DNA of 64,000 nucleotides from Candidatus Woykebacteria bacterium (GTDB taxonomy: Bacteria; Patescibacteriota; Microgenomatia; Woykebacterales; RBG-16-39-9b). Location: positions 170,510 through 234,509 of the forward strand of contig JBBDPN010000002.1 in assembly GCA_040876265.1 (NCBI GenBank), given 5' to 3'. Each line of letters starts with the position of its first letter. Within the stretch, counting starts at the first letter, position 1. The notes under the pieces were generated by a model. That model worked only from the letters and a program-made list of their open reading frames with translations, was not told the origin of the DNA and searched no databases. Shown in pieces: positions 15,750 through 52,832 of this stretch. The position numbers were made by a program, and so were the translations under genes.

Positions 15750-16793
15750 ATGGATCAGAATACTTTACTGTTTATTTTAATAGCCGTGGTGGTGGTTGGT
15801 TTTATCTTTCTGTTTCGGCAATTCCAGTCTATCAAAGAAGAAAAGGACAAGGATAAATCTAGTGAGGTTCTCATGAAATGGCTAGAGGAAATGAGAACCA
15901 GTGTCGATAAAAGTACCGAGACTATGCAACGCAGACTCGATGCGACGAACAAAGCGATTAATGAAAGGTTGGACAATGCCGCTCGGGTCATTGCCGGGGT
16001 TGGCAAAGAAGTAGGGGCCATGAGTGAAATTGGACGTAGCATGAAAGACTTGCAGGACTTTCTGCGTAGTCCAAAACTGAGAGGTAATATCGGCGAGCAA
16101 GTGCTGAAAGAACTGCTAGGCCAGTTTTTACCAAAGGAAAGTTTTCACCTCCAGTACCGATTTCGCAGCGGAGAAATTGTTGACGCGGCGATAAAGACAG
16201 AGAGCGGCATTATTCCGATCGACTCAAAATTTCCGATGGAAAATTTTAAACAAATGATGAAAGCCGAAGGTGAAGCGGAGAAAAAGGTTTATGAAAAAGA
16301 GTTTGGCCGAGATGTAAAGAAACATATTGACGATATCTCTAAGAAATATATTTTACCCGAAGAAGGCACGATCGATTACGCTCTGATGTACGTGCCTAGC
16401 GAACCTGTTTACTATGAAATTATGAGTAATATGCCTGAACTCTCTGATTACGCCCACAAAAAGCGAGTATTGCCGGTTTCTCCATCCACTTTTTACGCTT
16501 ATATGCGGGCGATTTTGATGAGTTTTGAAGGAAAAAAGATAGAGGAACGCGCTCGCGCTATCCTCGCCGCCCTTCGCGGTATAAAGGGAGACAGTGAAAA
16601 ATTTGGCGACGCTTTGCGTGTTCTCACCAAACATATTAACGATACAAAAAACACTAGCGACTTAGTCAACTCTCGCTACATTTCTCTACACTCCAAAATC
16701 GACACCGCCGGAAGTTTAAAAAGCGCTGACAAAAAAGCCCTCGAAGAACCACTAGCAGTAGAAGAAGTCGAAGAGATTACGGAAGAAACTTAG
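15750..16793 (+). CDS. rmuC: DNA recombination protein RmuC
   Basis: N-terminal TM, long coiled-coil, and the RmuC C-terminal region (IDSKFPMENF ... YALMYVPSE). Confidence 0.8.
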   Translation: MDQNTLLFILIAVVVVGFIFLFRQFQSIKEEKDKDKSSEVLMKWLEEMRTSVDKSTETMQRRLDATNKAINERLDNAARVIAGVGKEVGAMSEIGRSMKDLQDFLRSPKLRGNIGEQVLKELLGQFLPKESFHLQYRFRSGEIVDAAIKTESGIIPIDSKFPMENFKQMMKAEGEAEKKVYEKEFGRDVKKHIDDISKKYILPEEGTIDYALMYVPSEPVYYEIMSNMPELSDYAHKKRVLPVSPSTFYAYMRAILMSFEGKKIEERARAILAALRGIKGDSEKFGDALRVLTKHINDTKNTSDLVNSRYISLHSKIDTAGSLKSADKKALEEPLAVEEVEEITEET

Positions 16794-16806
16794 GAGGAGA
16801 GCACTA

Positions 16807-17049
16807 ATGGTTATAGAACAAGATGGGTTCGCAACCATCGAAGGTACCAGAGTGAGAGTCAAGGATATTGCGGACCAGTATCAGCGCGGCCTTGATGAGA
16901 TAGTTGCAGAGAAGCTGCAGGACTATTTCCCGCACCGGAGCATAGAGTAGATCCAAGCCGCAATTTCCTACTGGCGTGAGAACTCGGAGAAGATCGACGA
17001 GGAAATCCGCGCCGAAAAGGAAGTCTTTTTGGAAGCGTCGAAAGGATAG
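16807..17049 (+). pseudogene. DUF433-family (antitoxin-like) gene with in-frame TAG at 16948-16950
   Basis: The N-terminal 47 codons (IEGTRVRV...DYFPHRSIE) and the downstream in-frame segment (IQAAISYWREN...) together match the DUF433 consensus (GTRIPV ... YPxLTxEDIxAALxYA). The TAG sits at the conserved D/E position. A GGAGGAGAG ribosome-binding site lies 5 nt upstream. Confidence 0.5.
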
Positions 17050-17076
17050 CGGGAAGAACCTAGAAGGGAGATCAAT

Positions 17077-17310
17077 ATGGAGTGGCAGGACTGGCTCGTA
17101 TGGGGCGTTCTTGCTACCTGGCTTGGTGGAGGGTTGGTGTACTTTGCTCACTTGACTCACCAAATTCGGGCCGAGACAGGGAAGTGGCTCCACCCAACCG
17201 AACCTGGAGCCCAGATCCTCACCATCCTCATATGGTGGGTGATACTAGCGGGACGCTTTGCTTCGTGGATAGGAGGAGTGATGAAACGAAGGAATGGGGA
17301 GGTCTTGTAA
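17077..17310 (+). CDS. small hypothetical membrane protein (2 TM), G+C-rich islet
   Basis: 77-aa ORF with a GGGAG ribosome-binding site 7 nt upstream. Followed by an intrinsic terminator (ACGCCG...CGGCGT + T6) at about 17326-17364. Confidence 0.35.
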   Translation: MEWQDWLVWGVLATWLGGGLVYFAHLTHQIRAETGKWLHPTEPGAQILTILIWWVILAGRFASWIGGVMKRRNGEVL

Positions 17311-17514
17311 TCCAACCGCGCAACGACCGCCCTTAACGCCGACTCACACGAGCCGGCGTCTTTTTTGGAAACGGGTCGTTTCTCTTTTCCTTCGACTTCG
17401 CTCTCTTCGAGCCTGAGCGATGAGGCTCAAGCCTCAGAGCCGAAGGCAGGACAAGTTTCCGCAGTTTCCTCTCATCTTGACGCACAAATAATATTGGTGT
17501 ATGTTATATACACC

Positions 17515-17802
17515 ATGAAAAGGACCCAGCTTTATTTACCGGAAAAAACTTTGAAAATTTTGAAAAAAGAGGCGGCCGAGACTAAAAGGAGCGTTTCCGA
17601 AATCGTACGGGAAACTCTAGATGAAAGATTAAGAGAAAGTAGAGGCAACCCGGCTAGATTTTTAGTTGATATGGCCTTGCGAGCCGAACGGCTTGGCTAC
17701 AGCGGTCCAGTCGATTTAGCTGAAAAACACGATGAGTACCTTTATGGTAAAAAATCTCCTAAATGGGGTTATCTCTACAAAAATAAAAAGAAGAAAAAAT
17801 GA
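17515..17802 (+). CDS. vapB: ribbon-helix-helix (CopG/VapB-like) antitoxin with lysine-rich tail
   Basis: MKRTQLYLPEKTLKILKKEAAETKRSVSEIVRETL is a classic RHH N-terminus. Its stop overlaps the PIN gene start (ATGA). Confidence 0.6.
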   Translation: MKRTQLYLPEKTLKILKKEAAETKRSVSEIVRETLDERLRESRGNPARFLVDMALRAERLGYSGPVDLAEKHDEYLYGKKSPKWGYLYKNKKKKK

Positions 17803-18194
17803 TTTTTGTAGACACCAGTGCTTTTGTAGCTTTAAATAACCCTAAAGACCCACATCACAAAAAATCACTTCAAGTAAGTTTAAATCTAGAAAAAGAATCA
17901 GCGCCCTTTTTTACCACGAACTACATTTTGGCAGAAAGCTATACTGTAATAAGCCAAAAAGTTGACAAAGAAGCCAGCGTTTATTTTAGAGAGAATTTGG
18001 ATTTAAGGATTCGTATTGTTAGAGTGGGTGAAAGTTTAGAAGAGACTGCTTGGGAAATTTTTAAAGAAACACGCTCAAAAAATGTTTCCTACGTAGACTG
18101 TACTTCTTTTGCGGCGATGAAGGCTTTTAATATCAAGCGGGCCTTTGCCTTCGACGATGATTTTAAAAGAGCCGGATTTTCTTTATTGACGTAA
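17799..18194 (+). CDS. vapC: PIN-domain toxin VapC
   Basis: MIFVDTSAFVAL start and conserved acidic residues of PIN domains. 131 aa. Confidence 0.7.
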   Translation: MIFVDTSAFVALNNPKDPHHKKSLQVSLNLEKESAPFFTTNYILAESYTVISQKVDKEASVYFRENLDLRIRIVRVGESLEETAWEIFKETRSKNVSYVDCTSFAAMKAFNIKRAFAFDDDFKRAGFSLLT

Positions 18195-18257
18195 CCGTAG
18201 AATCCTTACCCTCGAAGAACCCGAAGAAATCACCGAGGAGTAACGACACACTATAGG

Positions 18258-18286
18258 TTGACATTCGAACCTATTTCCTGTATAAT
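18258..18286 (+). promoter_or_regulatory. perfect consensus sigma70 promoter TTGACA-N17-TATAAT
   Basis: TTGACA at 18258-18263. Exact 17-nt spacer. TATAAT at 18281-18286. About 40 nt upstream of the next ORF and its ribosome-binding site. Confidence 0.5.
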
Positions 18287-18328
18287 TCCCATCATCAAAT
18301 TAGCTAAATAACCTTGAAAGGATAGAGA

Positions 18329-18592
18329 ATGTTCGACGAACCACGTCAAGGGAGCATCGTCGGAAAAGTACTAAATGTACTCCTCGACCACATTGATGAG
18401 TTCGTGACGGAGGATCATATCTTAACAGAGGCTAGCCTCTGGGAGGAACACCTCCATCCGAACTTTCAGCGACAGCGTGTAGTCGCTGCGATGACTACCC
18501 TGCGGGGCAGGTACCGCTGGAAGATCGACACGAAGCGTAGTGGTGAGTACCCGAGCGAGGGTAACACCGCCTACCGACTACCTACACAGTAA
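18329..18592 (+). CDS. hypothetical small protein (ORFan), G+C-rich islet
   Basis: 87-aa ORF. AAGGA ribosome-binding site. Codon usage is clearly G+C-richer than the flanking genes. Confidence 0.4.
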   Translation: MFDEPRQGSIVGKVLNVLLDHIDEFVTEDHILTEASLWEEHLHPNFQRQRVVAAMTTLRGRYRWKIDTKRSGEYPSEGNTAYRLPTQ

Positions 18593-18606
18593 GGAGGGAA
18601 ACTGTC

Positions 18607-18903
18607 ATGCCGTGCAACAACAGGACCGTTCAGGAAGTGGTGGAGGAATGGTTGCGACAAGCAAGTCGAAGCCTCGAAAACCAGCTTCCTTGGAAGAGAG
18701 AGGAACTGCTGGTAGAGGCGATACGGGAGTCACTCGGTGATCCTCGCCTAGCTTTTGCCACTAGAGTCGGGGGAAAGCTGGTCATCCCGCCACCGCACTC
18801 GATACCGGTCCCGCAAGAAATGGAGAGACGCCGCCTCATTTTGAGGATGGCGTTGACTCTGCTCACGGAGATGGAATTACTCCGTTATCAAAACCAACCC
18901 TAG
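18607..18903 (+). CDS. hypothetical small protein (ORFan), G+C-rich islet
   Basis: 98-aa ORF. AAGGAGGG ribosome-binding site 6 nt upstream. Followed by a hairpin (GAAACGACC ... GGTCGTTT) with a T-run at about 18990-19045. Confidence 0.4.
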   Translation: MPCNNRTVQEVVEEWLRQASRSLENQLPWKREELLVEAIRESLGDPRLAFATRVGGKLVIPPPHSIPVPQEMERRRLILRMALTLLTEMELLRYQNQP

Positions 18904-19083
18904 GGCGAGCGTTGAAGATGCTGGAAACAGCGATGCCACGACCCCTAGGAGCTCCTAAGTAAATCAAGGGATTGATTTTCTTAGGAGGAGAAACGACCCC
19001 GTGTAGTCTTGTATGAAGTGGTGGTCGTTTTTCTTTTTCCTTCACTTCGCTCAGGATAAGTTATCTGGTAAAATGGTTTATCC

Positions 19084-22038
19084 ATGAGTAAAGTACTAGA
19101 GGGTTTGAACAAACAGCAAAAAGATGCAGTAATGACGACGGAAGGACCATTACTGATAATCGCTGGAGCTGGGACTGGAAAAACCACCGCCATTACCCGC
19201 CGCATCGCTTACCTTATTGAGCAAAAATTGGCTAAACCATCAGAAATTCTCGCACTCACCTTTACCGAAAAAGCAGCCGGAGAGATGGAAGAAAGGGTCG
19301 ATATTCTGGTTCCCTATGGTTACATTGACACTTGGATCTCTACATTTCACTCTTTTGGCAACCGCGTCTTGCAAGAAAACGCTATAGATCTAGGTCTATC
19401 CCCGGACTTTAAAGTCCTCACCCGCCCATCCCAAATTCTTTTTTTCCAACAAAACCTTTTTGCTTTTGATCCCTCTTATTATCGGCCACTTAGCAATCCA
19501 ACGAAGTTTATCGAAGCGATTTTGCAATTCATCAGTCGCTGTAAGGATGAAGACATTTCACCGGCAGACTACAAAAAATATGTCAGAAAATTGAAAAAAA
19601 CTACTCCAAGGAAACTTGGTTTAACGAAGAAGGAATGGGAGACCGAGGTCAAACGACAGGAAGAACTTGCTAATGTCTACGAAAAGTACGAGAAACTAAA
19701 AACAAATGCTGGACTTGTGGATTTTGGCGATCAGATTACTTTGACACTTAGACTTTTTCGCGAAAAACCAGGGGTTCTCAGAAAATACCAAAAACAATTT
19801 AAATACGTCCTTGTGGACGAATTCCAGGACACCAACTGGGCTCAGGACGAACTCGTCAAATTACTGGTAGAACCAAAGGATAATATCTGTGTGGTGGCAG
19901 ATGACGACCAGAGTATTTACCGTTTTCGCGGCGCGGCCATCAGCAACGTGCTGGAGTTTAAAAAGACTTACCCAAAAGCAAAAATAGTTACTCTGCTGGA
20001 AAACTTTCGCTCCGGGCAACCGATTCTCGACTCCGCCTACCGTCTGATTCGTCATAACGATCCAGATAGGCTTGAAGTACGTGAAAAAATTGATAAAAAA
20101 TTAAAATCAGTAAAAAAGAATCCGCCGGCTGGTGGATCTGGCCCGCCAAAAGAAATTTATGCTGAGACTCTTAGCGTTGAGGCTGATGCTATCGCAAAGA
20201 AAATTAAAGATTTAACAAAAAGGGAGAAGCTGGCCTACAAAGATATCGCAATTTTAGTGCGGGCAAATGCCCACGCCGATCCCTTTTTGCGAGCTCTCAA
20301 CATGAAAGGAATTCCCCACAAATTTGTTGGCAGTAGCGGCCTATACGCCCAGGAAGAAGTGAAGCTTTTAATCTCTTTCTTAACTGCAATTTCCAATTTC
20401 GACGATTCGCCAAACCTTTACAACCTTGCTTCGAGTGAAATTTATAAATTGCCTCTGAAAGACGCGATCGCGGTGATGGATTGGGCAAAAAGAAAAAGCA
20501 AGACCCTCCGTTATGTCCTCACCAAAATTGACGATCTAGAAGAGATCGAGCTAGGTGCGGAGGCGAAAGAGATAATTAAAAAGATAAACAGCGATTTAGA
20601 TTCTCTCGTTGATTTGTCCCGTAAAGAACCAGTCGGCCGGGCGCTCTATGAATTTTTGAAGAGAACTGGGTTCTTATCGCGGCTTGAACAAAAAGGCAAC
20701 GTGGAGGCGGAGATAAAGATCCAAAATATTGCCAGGTTTTTCGATAAAATCCGCGAATTTTCCGAGATTGCCCAAAATGAATCGGTGCGCGCCTTTACCG
20801 ATTGGCTCGCGGTTATGAGAGGTGCGGGAGACGACCCCGCAACTAGCGAATTTGATCCGGACACGAATGCAGTAAATATCATGACTGTTCACTCTGCCAA
20901 GGGTTTGGAATTCCCAGTGGTTTTTCTGGTGAATTTGGTTTCAGACAGGTTTCCCTCAAGAGAGAGGAGAGACGTTATTGCTATTCCGGCCGAACTAATA
21001 AAAGAAACACTTCCGGCTGGGGACTTTCACATGCAGGAGGAAAGAAGACTTTTTTACGTGGGTATGACGCGGGCGATGGATCATTTGTTTCTGACCTGGT
21101 CGCGTGATATTGGCGGAAAAAGGACCAAGAAAGTTTCTCCTTTTGTTCTTGAGGCACTGGATAAAACAGTCAGCAGTGCTCTGGTGGAAAAAACGAGCGC
21201 GCTAGAAAAAATCCACCGTCACGCTGGCCATACAGCCTCGGCTAGCAACCTACCTCAAGCAGGCGTAAAAGTAATTAAACTTACTCAAGGAGCAGTTGAT
21301 GATTACCAAACGTGCGCTTATAAGTATCGCTACGTTCATGTTTTGAGACTGCCTATTCTTCGTCACCACGCTGTGGTTTACGGAGCCGCGCTCCACATCG
21401 CTGTGGCCGCTTTTTACCGGGCCAAAATGGCTGGTAAAAAAATGCCACTCGCAGCACTCCTAGCAATTTTTGAAAAAGCCTGGACTGGCGAAGGCTTTCT
21501 TTCACAAGAGCATGAGGAGAGAAGATTAGCACAAGGGAAAAAGATCTTGGCTGATTTTTGGAGACGTGAAAAAGATAAAAAACAAAAACCCACCTTTATT
21601 GAAAAGGATTTTCGTTTCAGCGTCGGCGGAACTATTGTTACCGGTAGGTTCGATCGGGTGGATGTCGGCAGAAAAAAGGTGAAAATAATTGATTTCAAAA
21701 GTACTGAGGGCAGAAGCAAGGAAGAGATAGAAAAAAACGCCAAAGAAAGTATCCAACTTCGCGTCTATGCGTTGGCTTATTACAAAAATAGTAATCCGCC
21801 GGTAGTTCCAGATTTTGTCGGCATTTACGATCTTGATAGCGGAGTAGTGGGTGGTTACAAACCTACAAAGAAACATCTTGAAAAAACAGAAGAAGAGATC
21901 AAAGAAACTGCAAAAGGAATTAAAAATAATCTACAAGAGGACAATTTCCCAGCCAACCCAAAATACTTTGGTAGAGTCCCGGCGTGTTATTACTGTGCAT
22001 ACAATAGTATTTGCCCTTTCTCTTTAGTTAGAAGATAA
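19084..22038 (+). CDS. UvrD-family superfamily-1 helicase fused to a C-terminal RecB/Cas4-like PD-(D/E)XK nuclease with Fe-S cysteines
   Basis: Walker A GAGTGKTT. UvrD motifs (VDEFQDTN, TVHSAKGLEFP). C-terminal GRFDRVD ... IIDFKSTEG ... QLRVYALA nuclease motifs. Cysteines C...CYYCAYNSIC. Confidence 0.8.
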   Translation: MSKVLEGLNKQQKDAVMTTEGPLLIIAGAGTGKTTAITRRIAYLIEQKLAKPSEILALTFTEKAAGEMEERVDILVPYGYIDTWISTFHSFGNRVLQENAIDLGLSPDFKVLTRPSQILFFQQNLFAFDPSYYRPLSNPTKFIEAILQFISRCKDEDISPADYKKYVRKLKKTTPRKLGLTKKEWETEVKRQEELANVYEKYEKLKTNAGLVDFGDQITLTLRLFREKPGVLRKYQKQFKYVLVDEFQDTNWAQDELVKLLVEPKDNICVVADDDQSIYRFRGAAISNVLEFKKTYPKAKIVTLLENFRSGQPILDSAYRLIRHNDPDRLEVREKIDKKLKSVKKNPPAGGSGPPKEIYAETLSVEADAIAKKIKDLTKREKLAYKDIAILVRANAHADPFLRALNMKGIPHKFVGSSGLYAQEEVKLLISFLTAISNFDDSPNLYNLASSEIYKLPLKDAIAVMDWAKRKSKTLRYVLTKIDDLEEIELGAEAKEIIKKINSDLDSLVDLSRKEPVGRALYEFLKRTGFLSRLEQKGNVEAEIKIQNIARFFDKIREFSEIAQNESVRAFTDWLAVMRGAGDDPATSEFDPDTNAVNIMTVHSAKGLEFPVVFLVNLVSDRFPSRERRDVIAIPAELIKETLPAGDFHMQEERRLFYVGMTRAMDHLFLTWSRDIGGKRTKKVSPFVLEALDKTVSSALVEKTSALEKIHRHAGHTASASNLPQAGVKVIKLTQGAVDDYQTCAYKYRYVHVLRLPILRHHAVVYGAALHIAVAAFYRAKMAGKKMPLAALLAIFEKAWTGEGFLSQEHEERRLAQGKKILADFWRREKDKKQKPTFIEKDFRFSVGGTIVTGRFDRVDVGRKKVKIIDFKSTEGRSKEEIEKNAKESIQLRVYALAYYKNSNPPVVPDFVGIYDLDSGVVGGYKPTKKHLEKTEEEIKETAKGIKNNLQEDNFPANPKYFGRVPACYYCAYNSICPFSLVRR

Positions 22039-22140
22039 AACTTGACTTAGCTAGGCAGAAGTTGCCTAGCGCAGGATACGTGAATACTCGAGAAATTAAG
22101 GAGCCCGCAAATTTCGAGCGTATGTAGTATCCTATAGGAT

Positions 22141-22169
22141 TTGACTTTAAGCCTATTTTGTGATATTAT
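22141..22169 (+). promoter_or_regulatory. near-consensus sigma70 promoter TTGACT-N17-(TGa)TATTAT
   Basis: TTGACT at 22141-22146. 17-nt spacer. Extended -10 TGATATTAT at 22161-22169. Confidence 0.4.
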
Positions 22170-22384
22170 ATACCCGTAATTAAATAATACCACTGCCAGC
22201 TTCCTGAGAAAAAATTCTCGCGAAGTAGCCAGCAGAATGCAGGAAATCACGAAAGACACAATCTTGAGCGACGAAGCGCATTCTTTTTTTGTAGGGTTAA
22301 ATCTGATTACTACAGGTTGTTAGTTTCAACCCCGCAACTTGAAAAGTAGAGTCTTGTGTTGGCCCTTAGTAAAGGAGGCGTTTT

Positions 22385-22822
22385 ATGGCCAACTATTCAA
22401 GGCGGTTTCCGAGAGATCCGTACGAAGGGTTGCTGACTGAAGCACTCGTAGCCTGCGGTTACGAGGTAGTTCTGTCCAGCGGCCTTGAAGACGAGATCTT
22501 CGGTGAGGACGCTCGGGATACCGAATACGATGTTCCTTGGGACTTCTATGTCGGTAACGGAAACAACGGCCGGTACGCGGAAAAGCTTGCAAAGGCTGAA
22601 GCAAACCGAGTCGCTGTTCTTCAAATCCCAGTCGGTCTTCTGGATGATCTATGTCTTCCCTCCCGAAGGGCCCGAGCCCTGACTCAGCTAGCAGGTCTCT
22701 ACGATGAGGCACTTAGCAAAGCACGTAGTCAGAGGCTTCGGAGTCGACAGGAGTTGGAAGCGGAGAAATCCAGTTGGTTGACGTTCGAGCGCCAACCTCG
22801 CCGTGTTCTCCAACCCGCCTAA
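22385..22822 (+). CDS. hypothetical protein (ORFan), G+C-rich islet
   Basis: 145-aa ORF. AAAGGAGG ribosome-binding site 6 nt upstream. The antisense ORFs here are attributed to high G+C. Confidence 0.4.
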   Translation: MANYSRRFPRDPYEGLLTEALVACGYEVVLSSGLEDEIFGEDARDTEYDVPWDFYVGNGNNGRYAEKLAKAEANRVAVLQIPVGLLDDLCLPSRRARALTQLAGLYDEALSKARSQRLRSRQELEAEKSSWLTFERQPRRVLQPA

Positions 22823-23035
22823 GAACCAAATACCTGCCAGGGGGAGTACTGATATTAGCGAAAGCCAATCAGTCTGGTAACCAACAACCTCCCTCCGCTT
22901 CGCAAGTCGTCAAGGACTTGCTCAGGAAATAAAAGGAGGTGAAAACCATATTCCTGGGCAGCTCCTTGGCAAGATGCCAAAGCGGACTATCTCACCCGTT
23001 AGTGAGGTGACAGTTACCCTAAGGAGGGATATCGA

Positions 23036-23413
23036 ATGGTAGACAGCAACATGTATGGTTGCGCTCTCGGAATCTGCGATGTTCTGGGTGCACCCCAGGA
23101 CACCTATACGTTCCGGGGTGACAACGACCCCTCGCCTCTGCTCTGGGTGGTCGTGGACCTGGACAGCAATAGGGATCCACTCAAGCGGCAGTACAAAACC
23201 TTGTGTTGCCATCACAGGGGTAAGGCAGCCAAGGCGCTCGAGAGTAAGGGTCGCAGCGTCACAGTGATGCCTTTGCACGCCTTCCTCGAGAAGCGCGCGG
23301 AGTTCGAAGCCGAAGCGCAGGCCAAGCGGGATCAGGAAGAAGCCGAGGCTGCAGCCTTCGAGGACCTTTGGAACACTCCTACCGCAGAGGCACCGGCCGT
23401 TACGACCGTGTAG
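23036..23413 (+). CDS. hypothetical Cys-containing protein (ORFan), G+C-rich islet
   Basis: 125-aa ORF. TAAGGAGGG ribosome-binding site 7 nt upstream. Confidence 0.4.
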   Translation: MVDSNMYGCALGICDVLGAPQDTYTFRGDNDPSPLLWVVVDLDSNRDPLKRQYKTLCCHHRGKAAKALESKGRSVTVMPLHAFLEKRAEFEAEAQAKRDQEEAEAAAFEDLWNTPTAEAPAVTTV

Positions 23414-23645
23414 CCCCAGCCAAACCAAGCGACCATCTCCAAATCACTCAGAAAAGAGACACCCGTGATTGGTGAGCACGGTTAACGTGCAGTGATTAAC
23501 CGCTCGAGGAATGAATGAGCGGAAAATAAAGATCAGGGAGGTACTGGCCTATAACATATAGGAAGTCTGGTTGGAAGAAGTCGAACTTCTCAAAAAACCT
23601 CCCCAACCTTTCTTACAACCGCCAAAATAGGTGGTTTTTCTTTGG

Positions 23646-24533
23646 TCAAAAAAAGCGAGACGGGAAAAAGAGTATTTTTGACCAAAGCTTGGGGTACTTC
23701 ACGAAAGAGCCAATATATTCCACCTCTTCCCCGCCAAACCCCCGTTTAAAAAGAGTAAAGCCTTTCCAATTTCTGGTTGAGTGGATGCGAGGGTCGTGAA
23801 TGCCTTCAAGATCGAGCGTCTTGCAGCCTTTTTTCTTTAAGAATCGCATCGCTTCCCACAAAAGTAGATATGGAGCCATCACGTCGCGATGTCCTTCTAC
23901 GGAAGCCGCGTGTTGATAGTACCCAGCTTTTTCTGAGAACAATAGTAAAGAAGAAGCGAGAGCCTCATTATTGTAATAAGCAGTAAGTATCGCGGCCGAG
24001 CCGCCTTTGTGAAAAATTTTCCAGAGAACCTCTATTTCCTTTTTTGCCGGCCAAAACCCCTTTCTTTTTGCAGTTGCGTAGTAAAGAGTTTTAAACTCTT
24101 CAATATCATCAGTTTGCTTTACCATTACTCCTCGACGCTGTGCTAAACGTACATTGTAGCGAGTGTCTTTTTCCATATTTCTGAGGAGCTCATCTTCACT
24201 TTTGGTAAGGTCAATTTTTATAGTTCGGGTGGGTGAGAGCGGCCAACGATCGCCTCTAAAACCACTATTTTCAATTAGGGATAAAATATTATCGAGCTTG
24301 GATTGTTTGGTTTCTATGGCGGGTTCTAGCTTAACGAAAAAAACATTGTTTTCTTTCACTACAGCGTCAATTTGTTTCAGAGGTAGAGGTAAAGGGACTC
24401 TAGGTATCTTTACTATTGTTCCCATGACAGGGATCTTTTTGGAGTAAGCAAATGAAGTTGGAGTCAGAGGGTGTGTTTGCCAACCAAGTTCCTCCAGGTA
24501 TTTCGCCCACAAACTGCTTTGCCGAATGTCCAC
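23646..24533 (-). CDS. FemAB-family peptidoglycan interpeptide-bridge aminoacyltransferase (GNAT fold)
   Basis: TRYNVRLAQRRG, YLLLWEAMRFLKKKGCKTLDLEG and FKRGFGGEEVEY motifs match the FemAB family. Confidence 0.6.
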   Translation of the reverse strand: MDIRQSSLWAKYLEELGWQTHPLTPTSFAYSKKIPVMGTIVKIPRVPLPLPLKQIDAVVKENNVFFVKLEPAIETKQSKLDNILSLIENSGFRGDRWPLSPTRTIKIDLTKSEDELLRNMEKDTRYNVRLAQRRGVMVKQTDDIEEFKTLYYATAKRKGFWPAKKEIEVLWKIFHKGGSAAILTAYYNNEALASSLLLFSEKAGYYQHAASVEGHRDVMAPYLLLWEAMRFLKKKGCKTLDLEGIHDPRIHSTRNWKGFTLFKRGFGGEEVEYIGSFVKYPKLWSKILFFPSRFF

Positions 24534-41378: not shown

Positions 41379-41729
41379 TTAGTTGGCGGAAACTAATTTC
41401 CGGACTTCTTTCAGCACTTCATGCTTTGGTACCCACCGATCCGCTCCCGCCTCCACGATTTGTTGGCCAAAGTAGGAGCTCCTAGAGGAGGCTAGGATGA
41501 TCCCGTCAAATTGGGCTCGAAACCCACTCGTTAGTTGCTGAGTGTTCGGTTTCGTGGTGTGGAGGCAGGCATCCATCACGATGATGTCGATGGTTCCGAG
41601 GTATTCTCGAAATAGAACTCTGGCTTCCGCCTCGGTCGTAGCGACAATTAAGTCGCAATAGCTACGAAGCCCTATTTCGACAACCTCGATGAAATCATCA
41701 TCGTCTTCGACTAGCAACACTTTTTGCAT
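41379..41729 (-). CDS. stand-alone response-regulator receiver (CheY-like) domain protein
   Basis: LLVEDDDDF, DIIVMD and conserved Lys. 116 aa with no output domain. Confidence 0.6.
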   Translation of the reverse strand: MQKVLLVEDDDDFIEVVEIGLRSYCDLIVATTEAEARVLFREYLGTIDIIVMDACLHTTKPNTQQLTSGFRAQFDGIILASSRSSYFGQQIVEAGADRWVPKHEVLKEVRKLVSAN

Positions 41730-48446: not shown

Positions 48447-50537
48447 ATGACTAAAAAACCAAAACTAATAAAAAAAGAAATAAATTGGGGTGGTAGGACA
48501 CTCTCATTTGAACGTGGAAGAATTGCTAACCAAGCAGATAGTGGTATTTTAGGCCGCTACGGAGATACTATGGTTCTAGCCACTGTGGTTTCCGCTCCTC
48601 CCCGCGAAGATCTTGATTACTTTCCTCTTTCGGTCGATTATGAAGAGAGGCTTTATGCGTCGGGTCGTATATCAACCTCGAGGTTTATCAAAAGAGAAGG
48701 CAGACCGACCGATGAAGCCATTTTAAACGGGAGATTGATAGATCGTTCTATCCGTCCCCTCTTTCCTAAAGATTATTATAATGAAGTTCAGGTTATCATA
48801 ACCATCCTTTCTTACGATCAGGAAAACGATCCTGATATTGTGTCGCTTCTCTCCACAAGTGCGGCTCTGGTTACATCACCTATCCCTTGGGGTGGGCCGG
48901 TGGTTGGAGTCCGTGTCGGTTACAGGGATGGAGAGTTTATTTTGAACCCAACCAAAAGCGATGAGTCTTTTTCGGATCTGTCCCTTACCGTATCGTTCAA
49001 TCGGGAAAAGGTAGTCATGATAGAAGGAGGTTCTAGAGAAATTTCAGAAGAGATAGTTTTAGGCGCGATTGATTTTGCCAGGGAACAAGTAAAGGCAGTT
49101 TTTGAGCTCTTTGACCTACTTCAGAAAGAGGCCGGTGTAGAAAAAGAGATTGGAAACGAAGAGGACAGTTCAAAGGAGCTAAAGAAGCAAGTTACAGATT
49201 ATATCAAGAAAAATTTCGAAAAAGATCTTTTTGACCCTGAAAAAAGTGCTCGGGAGAGTTTATCTGACGAAATGAAAGAGGAACTCTATAAGAAATTCGA
49301 AGGTAAACTCCCAAAGACCGAAATGAGTAAGCTGTTTGATAACATGGTGAAACAATTTGTGCGGGAGCAGATTGTGGAAAAACACCACCGCCCAGATGGT
49401 AGGAATTTAACCGACGTTCGGGAGTTGGAAATTGAAACAGGTATTCTCCCCCGGACCCACGGCTCGGCAATTTTTCGTAGAGGCGACACCCAAGTTCTAA
49501 CCGTAGCAACACTTGGTTCCACTTCCCTAGAGCAGTTGATCGAAGGAATGGAAGGCGAAGCTACGAAGCGCTACATGCACCATTATGAATTTCCTCCGTT
49601 TTCAACCGGAGAAGTAGGTCGGGTCGGACCCCCAAACAGGCGAGAAATTGGTCACGGCGCACTAGCCGAGAAAGCGCTCTTGCCGGTTATACCTGAAGAA
49701 GATAAATTCCCCTACACTGTCAGACTCGTTTCCGAGGTCCTTTCCTCATCTGGATCTACCTCTATGGCAGCCACTTGCGGCTCAACATTGGCCTTGATGG
49801 ACGCTGGTGCCCCGATAGCCTCTCCAGTTTCTGGTGTAGCAATGGGTTTGGTGACTGAAGGCGAAAAATATAAAATTCTAACCGATATCCAGGCGTTAGA
49901 AGATTTTTATGGGGACATGGATTTTAAAATAGCTGGTTCCGAAAACGGTATCACCGCAATACAGCTGGATGTAAAAATAGACGGTCTAACCCCCAAGGTT
50001 TTATCCGAGACACTAAAGCAGGCTAAAGAAGGGAGATTATTTATTCTAGGTAAAATGTTGGAGGCCTTGCCAAAAGCAAGAACAGAAATCTCCAAATACG
50101 CACCCAAGGTATCAATGATCCACATACCGCCGAAAAAAATCGGTGAGGTTATAGGTTCTGGTGGAAAAACGATCAACCGGATCATAGAAGAAACTGGAGC
50201 GGCGATCGATATTGACGATGATGGTTCGGTAAGCGTGACTAGTAACAATGAAGAAGGACTCAAAAAGGCAGTAAAATGGATCCAGGCTCTTACCCACGAA
50301 GTCAAACCAGGCGAGGAATATATTGGTGAGGTGAAAAGGATAATGAATTTTGGAGCTTTTGTTGAAATTCTCCCTGGGAAAGAAGGGATGGTGCATATTT
50401 CTCAGCTTGCTCCATATCGGGTTGAGGATATAAATAAGGAAGTTAAAATAGGCCAGAAGCTAAAAGTAATGGTCAAGGAAATAGATTCACAAGGTAGGGT
50501 AAATTTAACTTGTAAGTTTCCGAAGCAGTCTGAATGA
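48447..50537 (+). CDS. pnp: polynucleotide phosphorylase
   Basis: Two RNase PH domains, then KH and S1 domains. 696 aa. Confidence 0.9.
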   Translation: MTKKPKLIKKEINWGGRTLSFERGRIANQADSGILGRYGDTMVLATVVSAPPREDLDYFPLSVDYEERLYASGRISTSRFIKREGRPTDEAILNGRLIDRSIRPLFPKDYYNEVQVIITILSYDQENDPDIVSLLSTSAALVTSPIPWGGPVVGVRVGYRDGEFILNPTKSDESFSDLSLTVSFNREKVVMIEGGSREISEEIVLGAIDFAREQVKAVFELFDLLQKEAGVEKEIGNEEDSSKELKKQVTDYIKKNFEKDLFDPEKSARESLSDEMKEELYKKFEGKLPKTEMSKLFDNMVKQFVREQIVEKHHRPDGRNLTDVRELEIETGILPRTHGSAIFRRGDTQVLTVATLGSTSLEQLIEGMEGEATKRYMHHYEFPPFSTGEVGRVGPPNRREIGHGALAEKALLPVIPEEDKFPYTVRLVSEVLSSSGSTSMAATCGSTLALMDAGAPIASPVSGVAMGLVTEGEKYKILTDIQALEDFYGDMDFKIAGSENGITAIQLDVKIDGLTPKVLSETLKQAKEGRLFILGKMLEALPKARTEISKYAPKVSMIHIPPKKIGEVIGSGGKTINRIIEETGAAIDIDDDGSVSVTSNNEEGLKKAVKWIQALTHEVKPGEEYIGEVKRIMNFGAFVEILPGKEGMVHISQLAPYRVEDINKEVKIGQKLKVMVKEIDSQGRVNLTCKFPKQSE

Positions 50538-51148
50538 GTCAAACAAGCCAATTAACAGATCTCGCCGCTGCGATTGAAATCTGTAAGCGTTGCGATCTTT
50601 ATAAATCCGCTACCCATGCTGTTCCCGGGGAGGGAAACTTTGAAACAAAGGTAGTGTTTATTGGCGAGGCTCCGGGATTTCATGAAGATGTCCAAGGCCG
50701 ACCTTTTGTAGGAAATGCAGGTAAGTTGTTAAATTTGCTTTTGACGAAAGTTGGATTGAGACGCGAAGATGTTTTTATCACCAACGTTATCAAACACCGA
50801 CCCCCAGAAAATCGAGATCCGGCTCCGTCAGAAATAGCCGCGTGCACCTTTTGGTTGGAACAACAACTAGCAGTAATTTCTCCGAAGCTGGTAGTTACAC
50901 TGGGTAAATGGAGCTTGAATTATTTTTTACCGAATAAAAAAATTTCTGATGTCCATGGCAAAGTTTTTAGAGTTGGAGGAAGAACAATCTTGCCTATGTA
51001 CCATCCTGCAGCGGCACTACGCAGCGGTAAAATTGGTCAGGATCTCGAGAATGATTTTTTGAAAAATAAAGATTTATTACAAAACCCGGATAAACCTCTC
51101 GATTTGGGAGAAACAAAAAGCGAAGAAGGACAAGGTAGTCTATTTTAA
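50534..51148 (+). CDS. uracil-DNA glycosylase, family 4
   Basis: GEGNFETKVVFIGEAPGFHEDVQGRPFVGNAGKLL family-4 UDG signature. Start overlaps the pnp stop. Confidence 0.8.
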   Translation: MSQTSQLTDLAAAIEICKRCDLYKSATHAVPGEGNFETKVVFIGEAPGFHEDVQGRPFVGNAGKLLNLLLTKVGLRREDVFITNVIKHRPPENRDPAPSEIAACTFWLEQQLAVISPKLVVTLGKWSLNYFLPNKKISDVHGKVFRVGGRTILPMYHPAAALRSGKIGQDLENDFLKNKDLLQNPDKPLDLGETKSEEGQGSLF

Positions 51149-51149
51149 T

Positions 51150-52832
51150 ATGAGTAACGGAAGCAAACTCAATATGGAAGCAAAAAAACTACGCTTTATA
51201 CCGCTTGGGGGTAATGGTCAGGTTACTAAAAACATGTTCGTTTATGAATATGGACAAGATATTATTTTAGTTGACTGCGGTATGGGGTTCCCGACAGAAA
51301 TGCTTTACGGAGTCGATATGGTGATCCCTGATGTGTCTTATTTAAATGATCGGCGGGATAGGATAAGAGGCTATTTCATTACTCACGGTCATGAAGATCA
51401 TATTGGTGCCCTGCCTTACATCATTGACAAAGTCACCGCGCCAATTTACGCCACCAAACTTACAGCGGGACTAATCAAGGTGCGATTGAAAGAAGCGGGG
51501 AAACTGTCGACAACTACTTTTATTGAGCTAGAACCCAGAAAAAAGTATCAGCTAGGCAATTTTACAGTCGAGCCCATCAGAGTTAGCCATTCTATCCCCG
51601 ATTCTGTTTGTTTTGCCATCACCACTCCACTAGGAACCACGATCCACACCGGTGATTTCAAGTTTGATCCCTCCCCAGTGGATGGTCGTACTACCGATAG
51701 CGAGACCCTATCTTCGTATGGTAATCGCGGAGTGCTGGCCTTGATGAGTGACTGTCTGCGAAGTGAAAAACCTGGCTCAACTCTATCAGAAAATACAATC
51801 CGTCAGAGATTTGATGAAGCGATGAAAGAGGCGTCTGGTAGGGTAATCATCACAACATTTTCTTCCAATGTTTCCAGATTGCAGCAAGCGGTGGATGCTA
51901 GTATGAGTCATGGTCGTAAGGTGGTAATTGTTGGTAGAAGCATGGAACAAAATGCTCAAGTGGCCACAGAACTGGGGTACTTAAAAATTCCTTCGGATAT
52001 TTTAGTTAAGCCTGAAAAGAGTAGAAATCTTCCGGACAAAAACGTCACCTTGATCGTAGCTGGTAGCCAGGGTCAGCCAGGTAGCGCTCTTTCCAGAATT
52101 GCGTCCGGCGAGCACAAGTATTTCTCGATAAAAAATGGGGACTTAATTATTTTTTCAGCCGATCCCATTCCGGGTAATCAAGACGCAGTGTATGAAATGG
52201 TAGATAATTTATCACGTATGGGCGCTGCCGTGAAATATTCTGATATCACAAGTGATTTCCATGTTTCCGGTCACGGGTCTCAAAACGAGCTTCTAATGAT
52301 GCTTTCTCTCACCCGCCCAAAATATTTGGTACCAGTTTCAGCGATGTACCGACAAATGAGACAGTTTGTTGAAATTGCAAAAGCTTCCGGCAACCCTCCG
52401 AAACAAAGTTTTATTGTTGATGAAGGCGAAATAATAGAGTTTGACCAAAACGGGGCTCGGGTTAATGGGGAAGTAGAAACCACAAATATATTTGTAGATG
52501 GGATCGGTGTTGGGGACGTGGGGTCTATCGTTTTGCGCGACCGTAAAACTTTGGCGGAGGAAGGCATTGTGGTAGTTATTGTCACGGTAAAAAAGAAAAC
52601 AGGCGCTCTCTTGGAAAAACCAGAAATAATCTCGCGAGGGTTTGTTTATATGAAAGAAAGCATCCAACTGATAAGAGAATCTCAAAATGTAGTGACAAAG
52701 ACGATAAAGAAAAATGGAAAGGTGAAAAACTGGCTGTCGGTAAGGGAGAAAATTACTTCAGATCTGGAGCGTTTTCTTTTCAAAAAAACCGCCCGCCGCC
52801 CCATGGTCCTCCCCGTCATCGTCGATGTTTAA
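51150..52832 (+). CDS. rnj: ribonuclease J (metallo-beta-lactamase/beta-CASP)
   Basis: HGHEDHIGA motif, beta-CASP region and C-terminal domain. 560 aa. Confidence 0.85.
   Translation: MSNGSKLNMEAKKLRFIPLGGNGQVTKNMFVYEYGQDIILVDCGMGFPTEMLYGVDMVIPDVSYLNDRRDRIRGYFITHGHEDHIGALPYIIDKVTAPIYATKLTAGLIKVRLKEAGKLSTTTFIELEPRKKYQLGNFTVEPIRVSHSIPDSVCFAITTPLGTTIHTGDFKFDPSPVDGRTTDSETLSSYGNRGVLALMSDCLRSEKPGSTLSENTIRQRFDEAMKEASGRVIITTFSSNVSRLQQAVDASMSHGRKVVIVGRSMEQNAQVATELGYLKIPSDILVKPEKSRNLPDKNVTLIVAGSQGQPGSALSRIASGEHKYFSIKNGDLIIFSADPIPGNQDAVYEMVDNLSRMGAAVKYSDITSDFHVSGHGSQNELLMMLSLTRPKYLVPVSAMYRQMRQFVEIAKASGNPPKQSFIVDEGEIIEFDQNGARVNGEVETTNIFVDGIGVGDVGSIVLRDRKTLAEEGIVVVIVTVKKKTGALLEKPEIISRGFVYMKESIQLIRESQNVVTKTIKKNGKVKNWLSVREKITSDLERFLFKKTARRPMVLPVIVDV

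What the first reader, a model, noticed from the sequence alone, without database searches (positions are those of the whole stretch)
22039..23640. Second G+C-rich ORFan islet (two small genes with strong ribosome-binding sites) between a helicase-nuclease fusion and a PcrA-like helicase
About 1.6 kb with elevated G+C between the 984-aa UvrD/PD-(D/E)XK fusion and the FemAB/3D/PcrA block. It has a 345-nt leader with a strong TTGACT-N17-TGATATTAT promoter (22141-22169). It encodes a 145-aa and a Cys-containing 125-aa protein (CALGICDV...CCHH), each with a GGAGG ribosome-binding site, plus a short 22-codon frame behind AAGGAGGTGA. There is no homology I can recognise. Placement next to DNA-repair helicases, foreign composition and strong expression signals make it a candidate acquired module: anti-defence, toxin/immunity, or a regulator of the flanking helicases.
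Basis: partly seen in the sequence, partly recalled or inferred. Interest (0 to 1): 0.55.

Follow-up and report, generated by a model that had tools for sequence, protein, structure and literature searches.

The report
Mosaic small-gene module with ribosome-docking RNA
A 1.6-kb stretch in an uncultured ultra-small (CPR) bacterium carries two real small genes of unknown function wrapped in conserved RNA hairpins, and one hairpin displays a perfect ribosome-binding sequence that starts no gene, so it is probably a new kind of message-stabilising or ribosome-recruiting RNA element.

Summary
Window 22350-23500 is about 55% G+C against 42% background. It has its own promoter, two SD-led ORFs and a terminator.

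- **Coding:** both ORFs are real genes (dN/dS 0.18-0.30).
- **Not a recent insertion:** the same slot, between the helicase-nuclease and FemAB/3D/PcrA, holds a related but mosaic module in every Woykebacteria-like relative found.
- **Gene A (145 aa):** a rare CPR-only family, 16 clusters among 1.8 billion proteins. Its predicted fold is restriction-endonuclease/RAP-like.
- **Gene B (125 aa):** has a Cys/His cluster and no recognisable relative by sequence or fold.
- **The 'AAGGAGGTGA + 22-codon frame':** this is not a gene. It is the invariant loop of a covariation-supported RNA motif (22909-23011) absent from Rfam. The motif is the most conserved part of the slot and always sits just upstream of a variable gene. 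Its loop is an 11-nt perfect complement to the 16S 3' end, with no start codon after it.
- **Other RNA structure:** the leader, the A coding region (z about -4 against synonymous shuffles) and the 3' tail are also unusually structured.
- **Host context:** host genes here rarely use SD sequences, and RNase J is encoded in the window.

Best reading: an old, fast-evolving accessory module on a heavily structured mRNA with a STAB-SD-like 30S-docking hairpin. The function of the proteins is unresolved.

The parts
22141..22169 (+). Sigma-70-type promoter TTGACT-N17-TG-n-TATTAT
   Evidence: Consensus scan, 10/12 matches with TG. An equivalent promoter sits at the head of the slot in L001, L005, L006, L007, L022, L024 and L025.
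22176..22296 (+). Leader RNA of about 120 nt. It ends in a terminator-like stem (AGAATGC 22235-22241 / GCATTCT 22279-22285) followed by U7 (22286-22292). It is either an attenuator or a separate small RNA.
   Evidence: The stem plus U7 and the flanking GTAGGGTTAAATCTGATTAC are 95% identical to L007 and are conserved in L006, L022 and L001. The predicted fold contains this stem, but the overall MFE is not exceptional (z=-1.3). Function is inferred, not shown.
22297..22384 (+). Conserved 5' UTR segment (…TTTCAACCCCGCAA…) and the RBS of gene A (AAAGGAGG, 22371-22378)
   Evidence: Alignment with L001, L006 and L022. GGAGG lies 6 nt before the ATG.
22385..22822 (+). Gene A, 145 aa (WD187_04035). 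A small alpha/beta protein with a restriction-endonuclease/RAP-like predicted fold and a basic C-terminal helical tail. Its mRNA is unusually structured.
22909..23011 (+). Conserved structured RNA motif.
- P1: 22909-22970, 8+11 bp with one bulge.
- P1 loop: 22 nt, 22929-22950, holding the invariant AAAAGGAGGUGAAAAC (22931-22946).
- Linker.
- P3: 22989-23008, 7 bp, loop CCGUUA.
   Evidence: - P1: 99.4% of cells paired, 6 pairs changed on both sides, 0/500 shuffles.
- Whole motif on the model-fitted alignment of 11 copies: 97.8% paired, 16 of 26 pairs with double changes, slid controls 33-50%.
- P3, manual count: 55/56 paired, 5 covarying pairs.
- MFE z=-3.4.
- CM hit of 89 bits.
- No Rfam match.
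- No start codon 3-12 nt after the GGAGG.
22974..23042 (+). Not a conserved gene; it overlaps the linker and P3 of the RNA motif.
   Evidence: The ATG is absent in L001, L021 and L024. There is a 1-nt indel in L006, and the stop is not conserved in L007.
23021..23413 (+). RBS (AAGGAGG) and gene B, 125 aa (WD187_04040). It has a Cys/His cluster (C9, C14, C57, C58, H59, H60), a long C-terminal helix and an acidic tail.
23414..23641 (+). Structured 3' tail. It has several hairpins, including a junction closed by GGGAGG (23536-23541) / CCUCCC (23599-23604), then an intrinsic terminator at 23617-23636 plus a U run.
   Evidence: About 80% identical to L006 and L007. It is also present in L001, where it lies between genes E and F. 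Stems covary by eye: GGGAGG/CCTCCC with GGGAAG/CTTCCC; CCTATA/TATAGG with CTCG/CGAG and TCTGA/TCAGA; AGAAGT/ACTTCT with CCAAGT/ACTTGG and ACGAG/CTCGT. MFE z=-2.6. Terminator scan.

Best explanation
The islet is one transcription unit of a lineage-restricted, old but fast-evolving accessory module of CPR (Microgenomates/Woykebacteria) bacteria.

**Module layout.** Promoter; then leader or gene C; then gene A; then a structured RNA motif; then a variable gene (B here; E, G or others elsewhere); then a structured tail; then optionally gene F. This window holds a reduced version: leader, A, RNA motif, B, tail.

**Shown.**
- A and B are real genes.
- The module occupies the same slot in all relatives, with mosaic content.
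- The RNA motif is real and is the most conserved component.
- Its loop is an 11-nt perfect match to the canonical SD and is followed by no start codon.
- The A mRNA and the tail are unusually structured.
- Host genes rarely use SD sequences.
- RNase J is present.

**Inferred mechanism.** The message is built to be long-lived and strongly translated in a host that otherwise uses SD sequences little. The hairpin presents a 'super-SD' that docks a 30S subunit without initiation. In the manner of the Bacillus STAB-SD element, this would block 5'-to-3' decay by RNase J and/or hold a ribosome ready for the RBS 70-90 nt downstream. The leader's terminator-like stem would meter read-through.

**Inferred protein roles.** A (nuclease/RAP-like fold, basic tail) and B (Zn-type Cys/His cluster) are most likely nucleic-acid-binding proteins. 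Their role is unresolved.
For: **Coding.** dN/dS 0.18-0.30 with third-position excess.

**Synteny and mosaicism.**

**RNA motif.**
- P1: 99.4% paired, 6 double-change pairs, 0/500 shuffles.
- P1 plus P3: 97.8% paired, 16 of 26 pairs with double changes, slid controls at most 50%.
- P3 manual count: 55/56 paired.
- MFE z=-3.4.
- Found in 10 distinct loci, plus a second copy in L007 and a weak hit in L025.
- A related hairpin with GGAGG/GAGG in its loop follows gene A in the distant L016/L013/L008 group.

**Loop.** The 18-mer is unique in the window. No start codon follows within 3-12 nt.

**Host SD usage.** Low: 42 of 48 starts have at most a 4-nt match. GGAGG-led host starts number about 3.

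**Decay enzymes.** RNase J and PNPase are in the window.

**Precedent.** STAB-SD: an SD that does not initiate, binds 30S and blocks RNase J1 (PMC4113751).

**Anti-SD.** Retained in CPR outside a Parcubacteria subgroup (PMC9297842).

**mRNA structure.** A: z=-4.05 and -4.11. In 8 of 9 homologues z is -2.8 to -7.3, while flanks and genes C, D and F are near 0.

**Synonymous sites.** pS is 0.41-0.53 in A and B, against 0.72-0.84 (saturated) in the flanks.

**GC3 is not an expression effect.** DnaK has GC3 0.40.

**Protein folds.**
Against: - There are no expression, 5'-end or ribosome-binding data. The STAB-SD-like role rests on analogy alone.
- The 16S 3' end of this genome is not in the window. 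Complementarity is to the canonical UCACCUCCUUU (my knowledge).
- Classical STAB-SD acts near a 5' end and is not displayed in a hairpin loop. A 16-nt invariant loop could equally be a protein or RNA binding site.
- The covariation rests on 10-11 related sequences. One alignment was fitted to the model, and the P3 count was made by hand.
- The leader's fold is not statistically exceptional (z=-1.3), and its terminator stem shows no compensatory change.
- High GC3 and low synonymous divergence could also reflect exchange between lineages rather than RNA-level selection. B's own CDS shows no excess structure in the window (z=-0.1).
Confidence: 0.45

Rival explanations
1. Conflict module. A would be a nuclease toxin or effector, and B (or E, G and others) a rapidly changing immunity, antitoxin or anti-defence partner. 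The variable position would reflect an arms race.
For: - A has a nuclease-type fold.
- The gene after the RNA motif is replaced by non-homologous genes between sister genomes.
- Composition and signals are atypical.
- A PIN toxin and a second ORFan islet lie 4 kb upstream.
Against: - A and B occur without each other.
- No hits in PADLOC, PHROGs, Pfam or NCBIfam.
- No viral, phage or plasmid relatives.
- A lacks the catalytic Lys of the PD-(D/E)XK motif.
- The module is syntenic across a whole clade rather than patchy.
Confidence: 0.15
2. The P1 hairpin is not a ribosome-docking site. It would be a processing or operator site instead: an RNase III-type intercistronic cleavage hairpin (19 bp with a bulge), or the binding site of a regulator. 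The regulator could be protein A itself, whose best structural matches are RNA-binding RAP domains.
For: - Long, nearly perfect stem.
- The motif lies directly downstream of gene A in two deeply diverged groups.
- An invariant loop is typical of a specific binding site.
Against: - The motif persists unchanged in loci that have lost A: L006, L007, L022, L024.
- The conserved loop core is exactly the SD consensus. It stays SD-like (AGGGAGGUGA) in L025, where the stems have changed completely. That points to the anti-SD as the partner.
- RNase III would not require loop conservation.
Confidence: 0.2
3. Selfish element. A would be a free-standing homing-endonuclease-like gene. Its spread by gene conversion among related strains would produce the mosaic slot, the presence/absence pattern and the lower synonymous divergence.
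For: - A is present in 4 and absent from 4 of the 8 slots complete enough to tell.
- pS in A and B is well below that of the flanks.
- Mosaic breakpoints fall at the conserved RNA motif.
Against: - A has no recognisable DNA-binding domain and lacks the catalytic Lys.
- In other lineages it sits in a conserved multi-gene order, C-A-D-E-F, which is unlike a lone selfish gene.
- B shows the same low pS in loci that lack A.
Confidence: 0.1
4. Ordinary lineage-specific housekeeping genes. Their composition would simply reflect amino-acid content and expression level, and the RNA elements would be ordinary UTR structure.
For: - Syntenic conservation across the clade.
- Purifying selection.
- Neighbours are core genes.
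Against: - Gene content of the slot varies between close relatives.
- GC3 lies 3-7 sd from the host mean, while DnaK is host-like.
- SD usage is unlike host genes.
- The invariant non-initiating SD loop and the excess CDS structure are not ordinary.
Confidence: 0.1

Closest known systems
STAB-SD 5' mRNA stabiliser of Bacillus thuringiensis cry3A (Agaisse & Lereclus 1996; reviewed in PMC4113751)
   Same: An SD sequence in an untranslated region that directs no initiation and is complementary to the 16S 3' end. The host has RNase J. It lies upstream of the true RBS of the expressed gene.
   Different: - Here the SD is an 11-nt perfect match held in the 22-nt loop of a 19-bp hairpin.
- It is followed by a second conserved hairpin (P3).
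- It lies between cistrons rather than at a mapped 5' end.
- It occurs in a CPR bacterium whose own genes mostly lack SD sequences.
- The stabilising effect is untested.
PD-(D/E)XK (restriction-endonuclease-like) fold: Vsr, Hjc, I-Bth0305I and organellar RAP domains
   Same: The predicted alpha-beta-beta-beta-alpha-beta core of protein A. Conserved acidic residues lie in helix 1 (E14), before beta-2 (D42) and in beta-3 (D53).
   Different: - No sequence-level membership in any Pfam family.
- The (D/E)xK lysine is replaced by Y/F/L.
- The protein is only about 145 aa, with a basic helical tail.
- RAP domains are eukaryotic and organellar.
Intercistronic RNase III hairpins of phage T7 early mRNA (my knowledge)
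   Same: A long hairpin between cistrons of a polycistronic message that can define new mRNA ends and stabilise them.
   Different: T7 sites show no conserved SD-like loop. No cleavage evidence exists here.
Integron gene cassettes with attC sites
   Same: A conserved imperfect hairpin marks the boundary at which non-homologous small ORFan genes are exchanged in one chromosomal slot.
   Different: - No integrase nearby.
- No array of repeated sites (one copy per locus, two in L007).
- The hairpin lies 5' of the variable gene.
- There is no R'/R'' core sequence.
Type III toxin-antitoxin loci (toxIN)
   Same: Promoter, then a short structured RNA, then a terminator-like hairpin, then a nuclease-like gene.
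   Different: The leader has no tandem repeats. Relatives carry protein gene C in its place. A is unrelated to ToxN.

Membership tests
PD-(D/E)XK nuclease superfamily (protein A) | alpha-beta-beta-beta-alpha-beta core fold | tested here: met
PD-(D/E)XK nuclease superfamily (protein A) | Catalytic signature D ... (D/E)-x-K | tested here: not met
   D42 and D53 are invariant and E14 nearly so. The position two residues after D53 is Y/F/L/H/T, never K. K67 in the following helix is common but not invariant.
PD-(D/E)XK nuclease superfamily (protein A) | Sequence match to a curated family of the clan | tested here: not met
   No Pfam or NCBIfam hit for the window protein or for any of 18 members.
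STAB-SD-type mRNA stabiliser (RNA motif) | SD-like sequence complementary to the 16S 3' end | tested here: met
   AAAGGAGGUGA at 22932-22942 is invariant in 10 loci. The complementarity is to the canonical 16S end (my knowledge). The anti-SD is reported as retained in CPR outside a Parcubacteria subgroup. This genome's own 16S is not in the window.
STAB-SD-type mRNA stabiliser (RNA motif) | Does not direct translation initiation | tested here: met
   No ATG, GTG or TTG lies 3-12 nt after the GGAGG at 22935. The nearest downstream ATG frame is not conserved.
STAB-SD-type mRNA stabiliser (RNA motif) | Host has the 5'-to-3' exoribonuclease RNase J | tested here: met
   Window 51150-52832 matches RNase_J_b_CASP (2e-48) and RNase_J_C (1.7e-30).
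STAB-SD-type mRNA stabiliser (RNA motif) | Binds 30S and lengthens mRNA half-life; lies near the stable 5' end | not testable with these tools
   Needs 5'-end mapping, toeprinting and decay assays.
Any Rfam family (leader, motif, tail) | Covariance-model match | tested here: not met
   At gathering threshold, only one tRNA in the whole window. With E up to 1 over 16500-24500, only a sub-threshold match inside the helicase gene.
Type II toxin-antitoxin pair (A+B) | The two genes co-occur as an obligate pair | tested here: not met
   A occurs without B in L001, L005 and L025. B occurs without A in L006 and L007. No PADLOC hit.
Type III toxin-antitoxin | Tandem-repeat RNA antitoxin upstream of the toxin | tested here: not met
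   No tandem direct repeats in 22000-23700.
Integron cassette / attC | Tyrosine-recombinase integrase and an array of repeated attC sites | tested here: not met
   One motif copy in the window. The neighbours are helicases, FemAB and 3D. The whole window was not scanned for an integrase.
Class-I release factor / ArfB GGQ domain (protein A) | RF-1 domain homology and a GGQ motif | tested here: not met
   The family profile hits RF2 at E=0.008. But hhalign against ArfB gives probability 0.7%, no member matches Pfam RF-1, and the loop is GNGNNGR or variable rather than GGQ.
Phage or plasmid gene | Relatives in viral or plasmid collections | tested here: not met
   Nothing for A, B or the hairpin in IMG/VR, BFVD, or INPHARED and PLSDB by blastn.

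The most novel reading that the evidence does not exclude
The module would be a previously unrecognised RNA-protein system of CPR bacteria. A dual-use, heavily structured message carries a hairpin that captures 30S subunits through an 11-nt anti-SD match. In a host whose own genes largely dispense with SD sequences, this would give privileged, ribosome-level control over a hyper-variable small Zn-protein position. The nuclease/RAP-like protein A would act on the same RNA.
Probability: 0.18. Interest if true: 0.8.

Novelty: new variant of a known kind. Interest (0 to 1): 0.6.

Why it matters
CPR bacteria make up a large share of bacterial diversity, and most of their lineage-specific genes and RNAs are uncharacterised.

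- **A testable new RNA motif.** Covariation supports it and it is absent from Rfam. Its conserved feature is a non-initiating perfect SD presented in a hairpin loop. It bears on how mRNA stability and ribosome recruitment work in organisms that retain the anti-SD but rarely use SD sequences.
- **Two new small protein families.** One has a nuclease/RAP-like fold and the other a novel Cys/His domain.
- **A caution about composition.** G+C-rich 'ORFan islets' in these genomes can be old, syntenic, recombining modules with selection on RNA structure. That changes how compositional islands should be read in reduced genomes.

Tried and rejected
- **Known RNA families.** Rfam gave nothing at gathering or permissive thresholds.
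- **Known protein families.** Pfam, PHROGs, PADLOC and NCBIfam gave nothing for A, B, the first-islet ORFs or the partner genes C, D, E and F.
- **Species-representative genomes.** A family-A search and a hairpin-pattern search both found nothing.
- **Viral, phage or plasmid origin.** No relatives.
- **Release factor / ArfB lead for A.** The profile hit RF2 at E=0.008. I rejected it on hhalign probability 0.7%, no GGQ motif and no Pfam RF-1 match.
- **B versus the genes that replace it (E, G).** No detectable homology.
- **The 22-codon ORF as a gene.** Rejected, because its start, frame and stop are not conserved.
- **Leader as a remnant of gene C.** No tblastn signal.
- **One conserved RNA fold across all family-A coding regions.** None was found. 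A consensus structure appears only among close relatives.
- **Antisense ORF 22922-23428.** It is open in all three B orthologues. I attribute this to codon usage, since substitutions peak at sense third positions.
- **High expression as the cause of high GC3.** DnaK is host-like.
- **Not done.** The afdb50 fold library was unavailable. MAFFT mis-aligned P3, so I counted P3 by hand and then from a covariance-model alignment.
Full report
**1. What is there**

The window comes from a Candidatus Woykebacteria (CPR, Microgenomates) metagenome-assembled genome. The two ORFs carry locus tags WD187_04035 and WD187_04040.

G+C rises to about 55% between about 22350 and 23500, against about 42% elsewhere. 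The 345-nt leader is host-like at 0.41.

- A promoter-like site, TTGACT-N17-TG-TATTAT, lies at 22141-22169.
- An intrinsic terminator lies at 23617-23636.
- ORF A (22385-22822, 145 aa) and ORF B (23036-23413, 125 aa) each have GGAGG 6-8 nt before the ATG.

**2. Both ORFs are genes**

Orthologues were recovered for A (L001, L005) and B (L006, L007). Against them, substitutions concentrate at third codon positions, and dN/dS is 0.18 for A and 0.19-0.30 for B.

An antisense frame across B is open in all three orthologues. The position-specific substitution pattern fits the sense frame, so I attribute the open antisense frame to avoidance of TTA, CTA and TCA codons.

**3. The slot is old and its content is mosaic**

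Every related contig found has the same arrangement: helicase-nuclease, then a 1.6-3 kb slot, then FemAB-3D-(PcrA). The content of the slot differs between contigs:

| Locus | Content of the slot |
|---|---|
| window | leader, A, B |
| L001 | leader, A, E (283 aa), F (132 aa) |
| L005 | C (122 aa), A, a 176-aa gene |
| L025 | C, A, a 292-aa gene, F |
| L006, L007 | leader, about 600 nt without a long ORF, B |
| L022, L024 | leader, non-coding stretch, G |
| L021 | a B-like gene (about 30% identical), an F-like gene |

In other CPR lineages A sits elsewhere:
- C-A-D-(E)-F between DprA and a penicillin-binding protein (L016-L018);
- C-A beside RecG (L026);
- C-A-D (L013);
- A beside trigger factor (L014).

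An exhaustive profile search found only 16 family-A clusters among 1.84 billion representatives. B has four clusters among 5.8 billion.

This is therefore a rare, CPR-restricted module that has sat in this slot since before these species diverged. It is not a recent insertion in this genome.

**4. The most conserved thing in the slot is RNA**

*P1.* It is a 19-bp hairpin (22909-22970). Its 22-nt loop holds an invariant AAAAGGAGGUGAAAAC.
- On a plain MAFFT alignment of 10 distinct sequences, 99.4% of cells pair.
- Six pairs change on both sides.
- No shuffle out of 500 reaches this, and slid registers pair 30-53%.

*P3.* A second hairpin (22989-23008) keeps 55 of 56 cells paired, with five covarying pairs.

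*Whole motif.*
- A covariance model built from five sequences recovers the window copy at 89 bits. It also finds a second copy in L007 and a weak match in L025.
- On the resulting 11-sequence alignment, 97.8% of cells pair and 16 of 26 pairs show double changes. This alignment is fitted to the model and the sequences are related, so these figures are upper bounds.
- The window copy folds with z=-3.4.
- In L025 the stems are entirely different, yet the loop still reads AGGGAGGUGA.
- In the distant L016/L013/L008 group, a hairpin with GGAGG or GAGG in its loop follows gene A.
- Rfam has no match.

*The 22-codon frame is not conserved.* Its ATG is absent in three loci, and its frame or stop is broken in others.

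*Other RNA elements.*
- The 5' leader ends in a conserved stem plus U7 (22235-22292). Its fold is not statistically unusual (z=-1.3).
- The 3' tail carries several stems that covary by eye, including GGGAGG/CCUCCC with GGGAAG/CUUCCC. Its MFE z is -2.6.
- In L001 the tail precedes gene F, so it may act as a 5' UTR there.

**5. The proteins**

*Protein A.* The AF2 model has pLDDT 78 and pTM 0.72 from a 5-sequence alignment, and is alpha-beta-beta-beta-alpha-beta.
- D36, D42 and D53 are invariant and E14 nearly so. The lysine of the (D/E)xK motif is absent.
- The fold class is supported. Nuclease activity is not.

*Protein B.* The model is confident (pLDDT 89.5).
- It has no PDB sequence relative.
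- Six invariant Cys/His residues suggest a metal site. This is an inference.
- B shows no detectable homology to the genes that replace it.

**6. Composition, signals and synonymous sites**

- **GC3.** A and B lie 3.2 and 7.4 sd above 53 host ORFs. The same excess is seen in their orthologues, but not in C or F.
- **Expression.** DnaK is host-like, so expression level alone does not explain the excess.
- **SD usage.** Host genes seldom have an SD: 42 of 48 starts match at most 4 nt, and about 3 have GGAGG. Every islet gene has 7-8 nt. Host starts were taken as longest ORFs, so some may be mis-set. The genome-wide GGAGG listing does not depend on that.
- **Synonymous divergence.** It is saturated in the flanks (pS 0.72-0.84) but is 0.41-0.53 in A and B. 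dN is similar in both.
- **CDS structure.** The A coding region folds far better than synonymous-codon shuffles (z=-4.05) or dinucleotide shuffles (z=-4.11).
  - This recurs in 8 of 9 homologues (z -2.8 to -7.3).
  - It does not appear in flanking genes or in C, D and F.
  - A shared consensus structure is seen only among close relatives. Selection therefore seems to favour structure in general rather than one fold.
  - B is weaker (z -0.1, -2.4, -1.8).

**7. How it most likely works**

*Shown:* a self-contained transcription unit; real genes; conserved structured RNAs; a non-initiating perfect SD in a loop immediately upstream of the next gene's own RBS; RNase J and PNPase in the same window.

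*From the literature:* an SD that does not initiate can bind 30S and block RNase J1, as STAB-SD does (PMC4113751). The anti-SD motif is retained in CPR outside a Parcubacteria subgroup (PMC9297842).

*Inferred:*
- The hairpin docks a 30S subunit. This protects the downstream message and/or feeds the nearby RBS.
- The overall high structure makes the mRNA long-lived.
- The leader stem plus U7 meters entry into the operon.
- A and B are probably nucleic-acid-binding proteins. Their role is open.

I put 0.45 on this package. The weakest link is the ribosome-docking function.

**8. Rivals**

- A conflict system (toxin/immunity or anti-defence).
- A processing or operator hairpin, possibly bound by A.
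- A homing-endonuclease-like selfish gene.
- Ordinary lineage-specific genes.

The rival entries give the evidence for and against each. The separate occurrence of A and B, the persistence of the motif without A, and the conserved multi-gene order elsewhere count against the first three as sole explanations.

**9. Novelty**

No component matches a described family. The nearest analogies are STAB-SD for the RNA and the PD-(D/E)XK/RAP fold for A. I therefore file it as a new variant of known kinds, with a modest chance that the whole is a new RNA-protein system.

**10. Limits**

- There are no expression data.
- The protein alignments are shallow.
- The RNA evidence rests on 10-11 related sequences.
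- The 16S 3' end of this genome is not available here.
- The afdb50 fold library was unavailable.

Noticed in passing
window 16794-19083: This is the 'first islet'. About 2.3 kb lies between RmuC (15750-16793) and the helicase-nuclease, and it is absent in relatives L007 and L025, where RmuC abuts the helicase. It holds a G+C-rich stretch (16800-17500) with SD-led small ORFs at 16807 and 17284, a PIN-domain toxin (17799-18194) preceded by a possible antitoxin, and ORFans of 87 aa and 98 aa with GC3 about 0.61. Unlike the second islet, this one looks like a true insertion.
   Followed up: partly
window 18607-18903: The coding region of ORF98 in the first islet also folds much better than its synonymous shuffles (z=-3.8, 0/60), like gene A.
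   Followed up: no
window, all gene starts: Host genes in this window rarely have a Shine-Dalgarno sequence. About 3 of about 50 have GGAGG 3-12 nt upstream, while all genes of the G+C-rich islets do. Host starts were taken as the longest ORFs.
   Followed up: partly
window 48447-52832: PNPase (48447-50537) and RNase J (51150-52832) are encoded close together. This bears on mRNA decay in this organism.
   Followed up: no
window 41379-41729 (-): Another small ORFan (116 aa, no Pfam hit). Its GC3 of 0.57 is the highest among the 53 other ORFs. The neighbouring 42-44 kb region is also mildly G+C-rich.
   Followed up: no
L006 7536-7631; L022 (reverse strand, about 310-400 nt after the helicase stop): In slots that lack gene A, a conserved SD-led micro-ORF of 30-31 codons (MARxxSALSxGxCxSCxGxxDxQGHCRCSR) follows the leader. 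A covarying hairpin (CACATCTTCTC…GAGGAGATGTG) precedes it.
   Followed up: no
L007 7739-7821: A second, diverged copy of the SD-loop hairpin lies about 55 nt upstream of the main copy (38 bits, E about 1e-7).
   Followed up: no
L016 7442-7650; L013 1216-1420; L008 810-1030: In a distant CPR group, the region after gene A is also strongly conserved and structured. It includes a hairpin CCUGGGAA-[GGAGG…]-UUCCUAG that resembles the upper stem and loop of P1.
   Followed up: partly
window 21009-21120: A sub-threshold Rfam match to n00280, 'C. difficile sRNA included into helicase gene' (39 bits against a gathering score of 65, E=9e-4), lies inside the helicase-nuclease gene. It most likely reflects conserved helicase coding sequence.
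   Followed up: no
window 23640-23652 / 23675-23687: A perfect 13-nt inverted repeat (CTTTGGTCAAAAA / TTTTTGACCAAAG) spans the stop of the convergent FemAB gene. It may be that gene's terminator.
   Followed up: no
window 22922-23428 (-): A 168-aa antisense ORF across gene B stays open in all three orthologues. I judged it a by-product of codon usage, because substitutions peak at sense third positions.
   Followed up: partly
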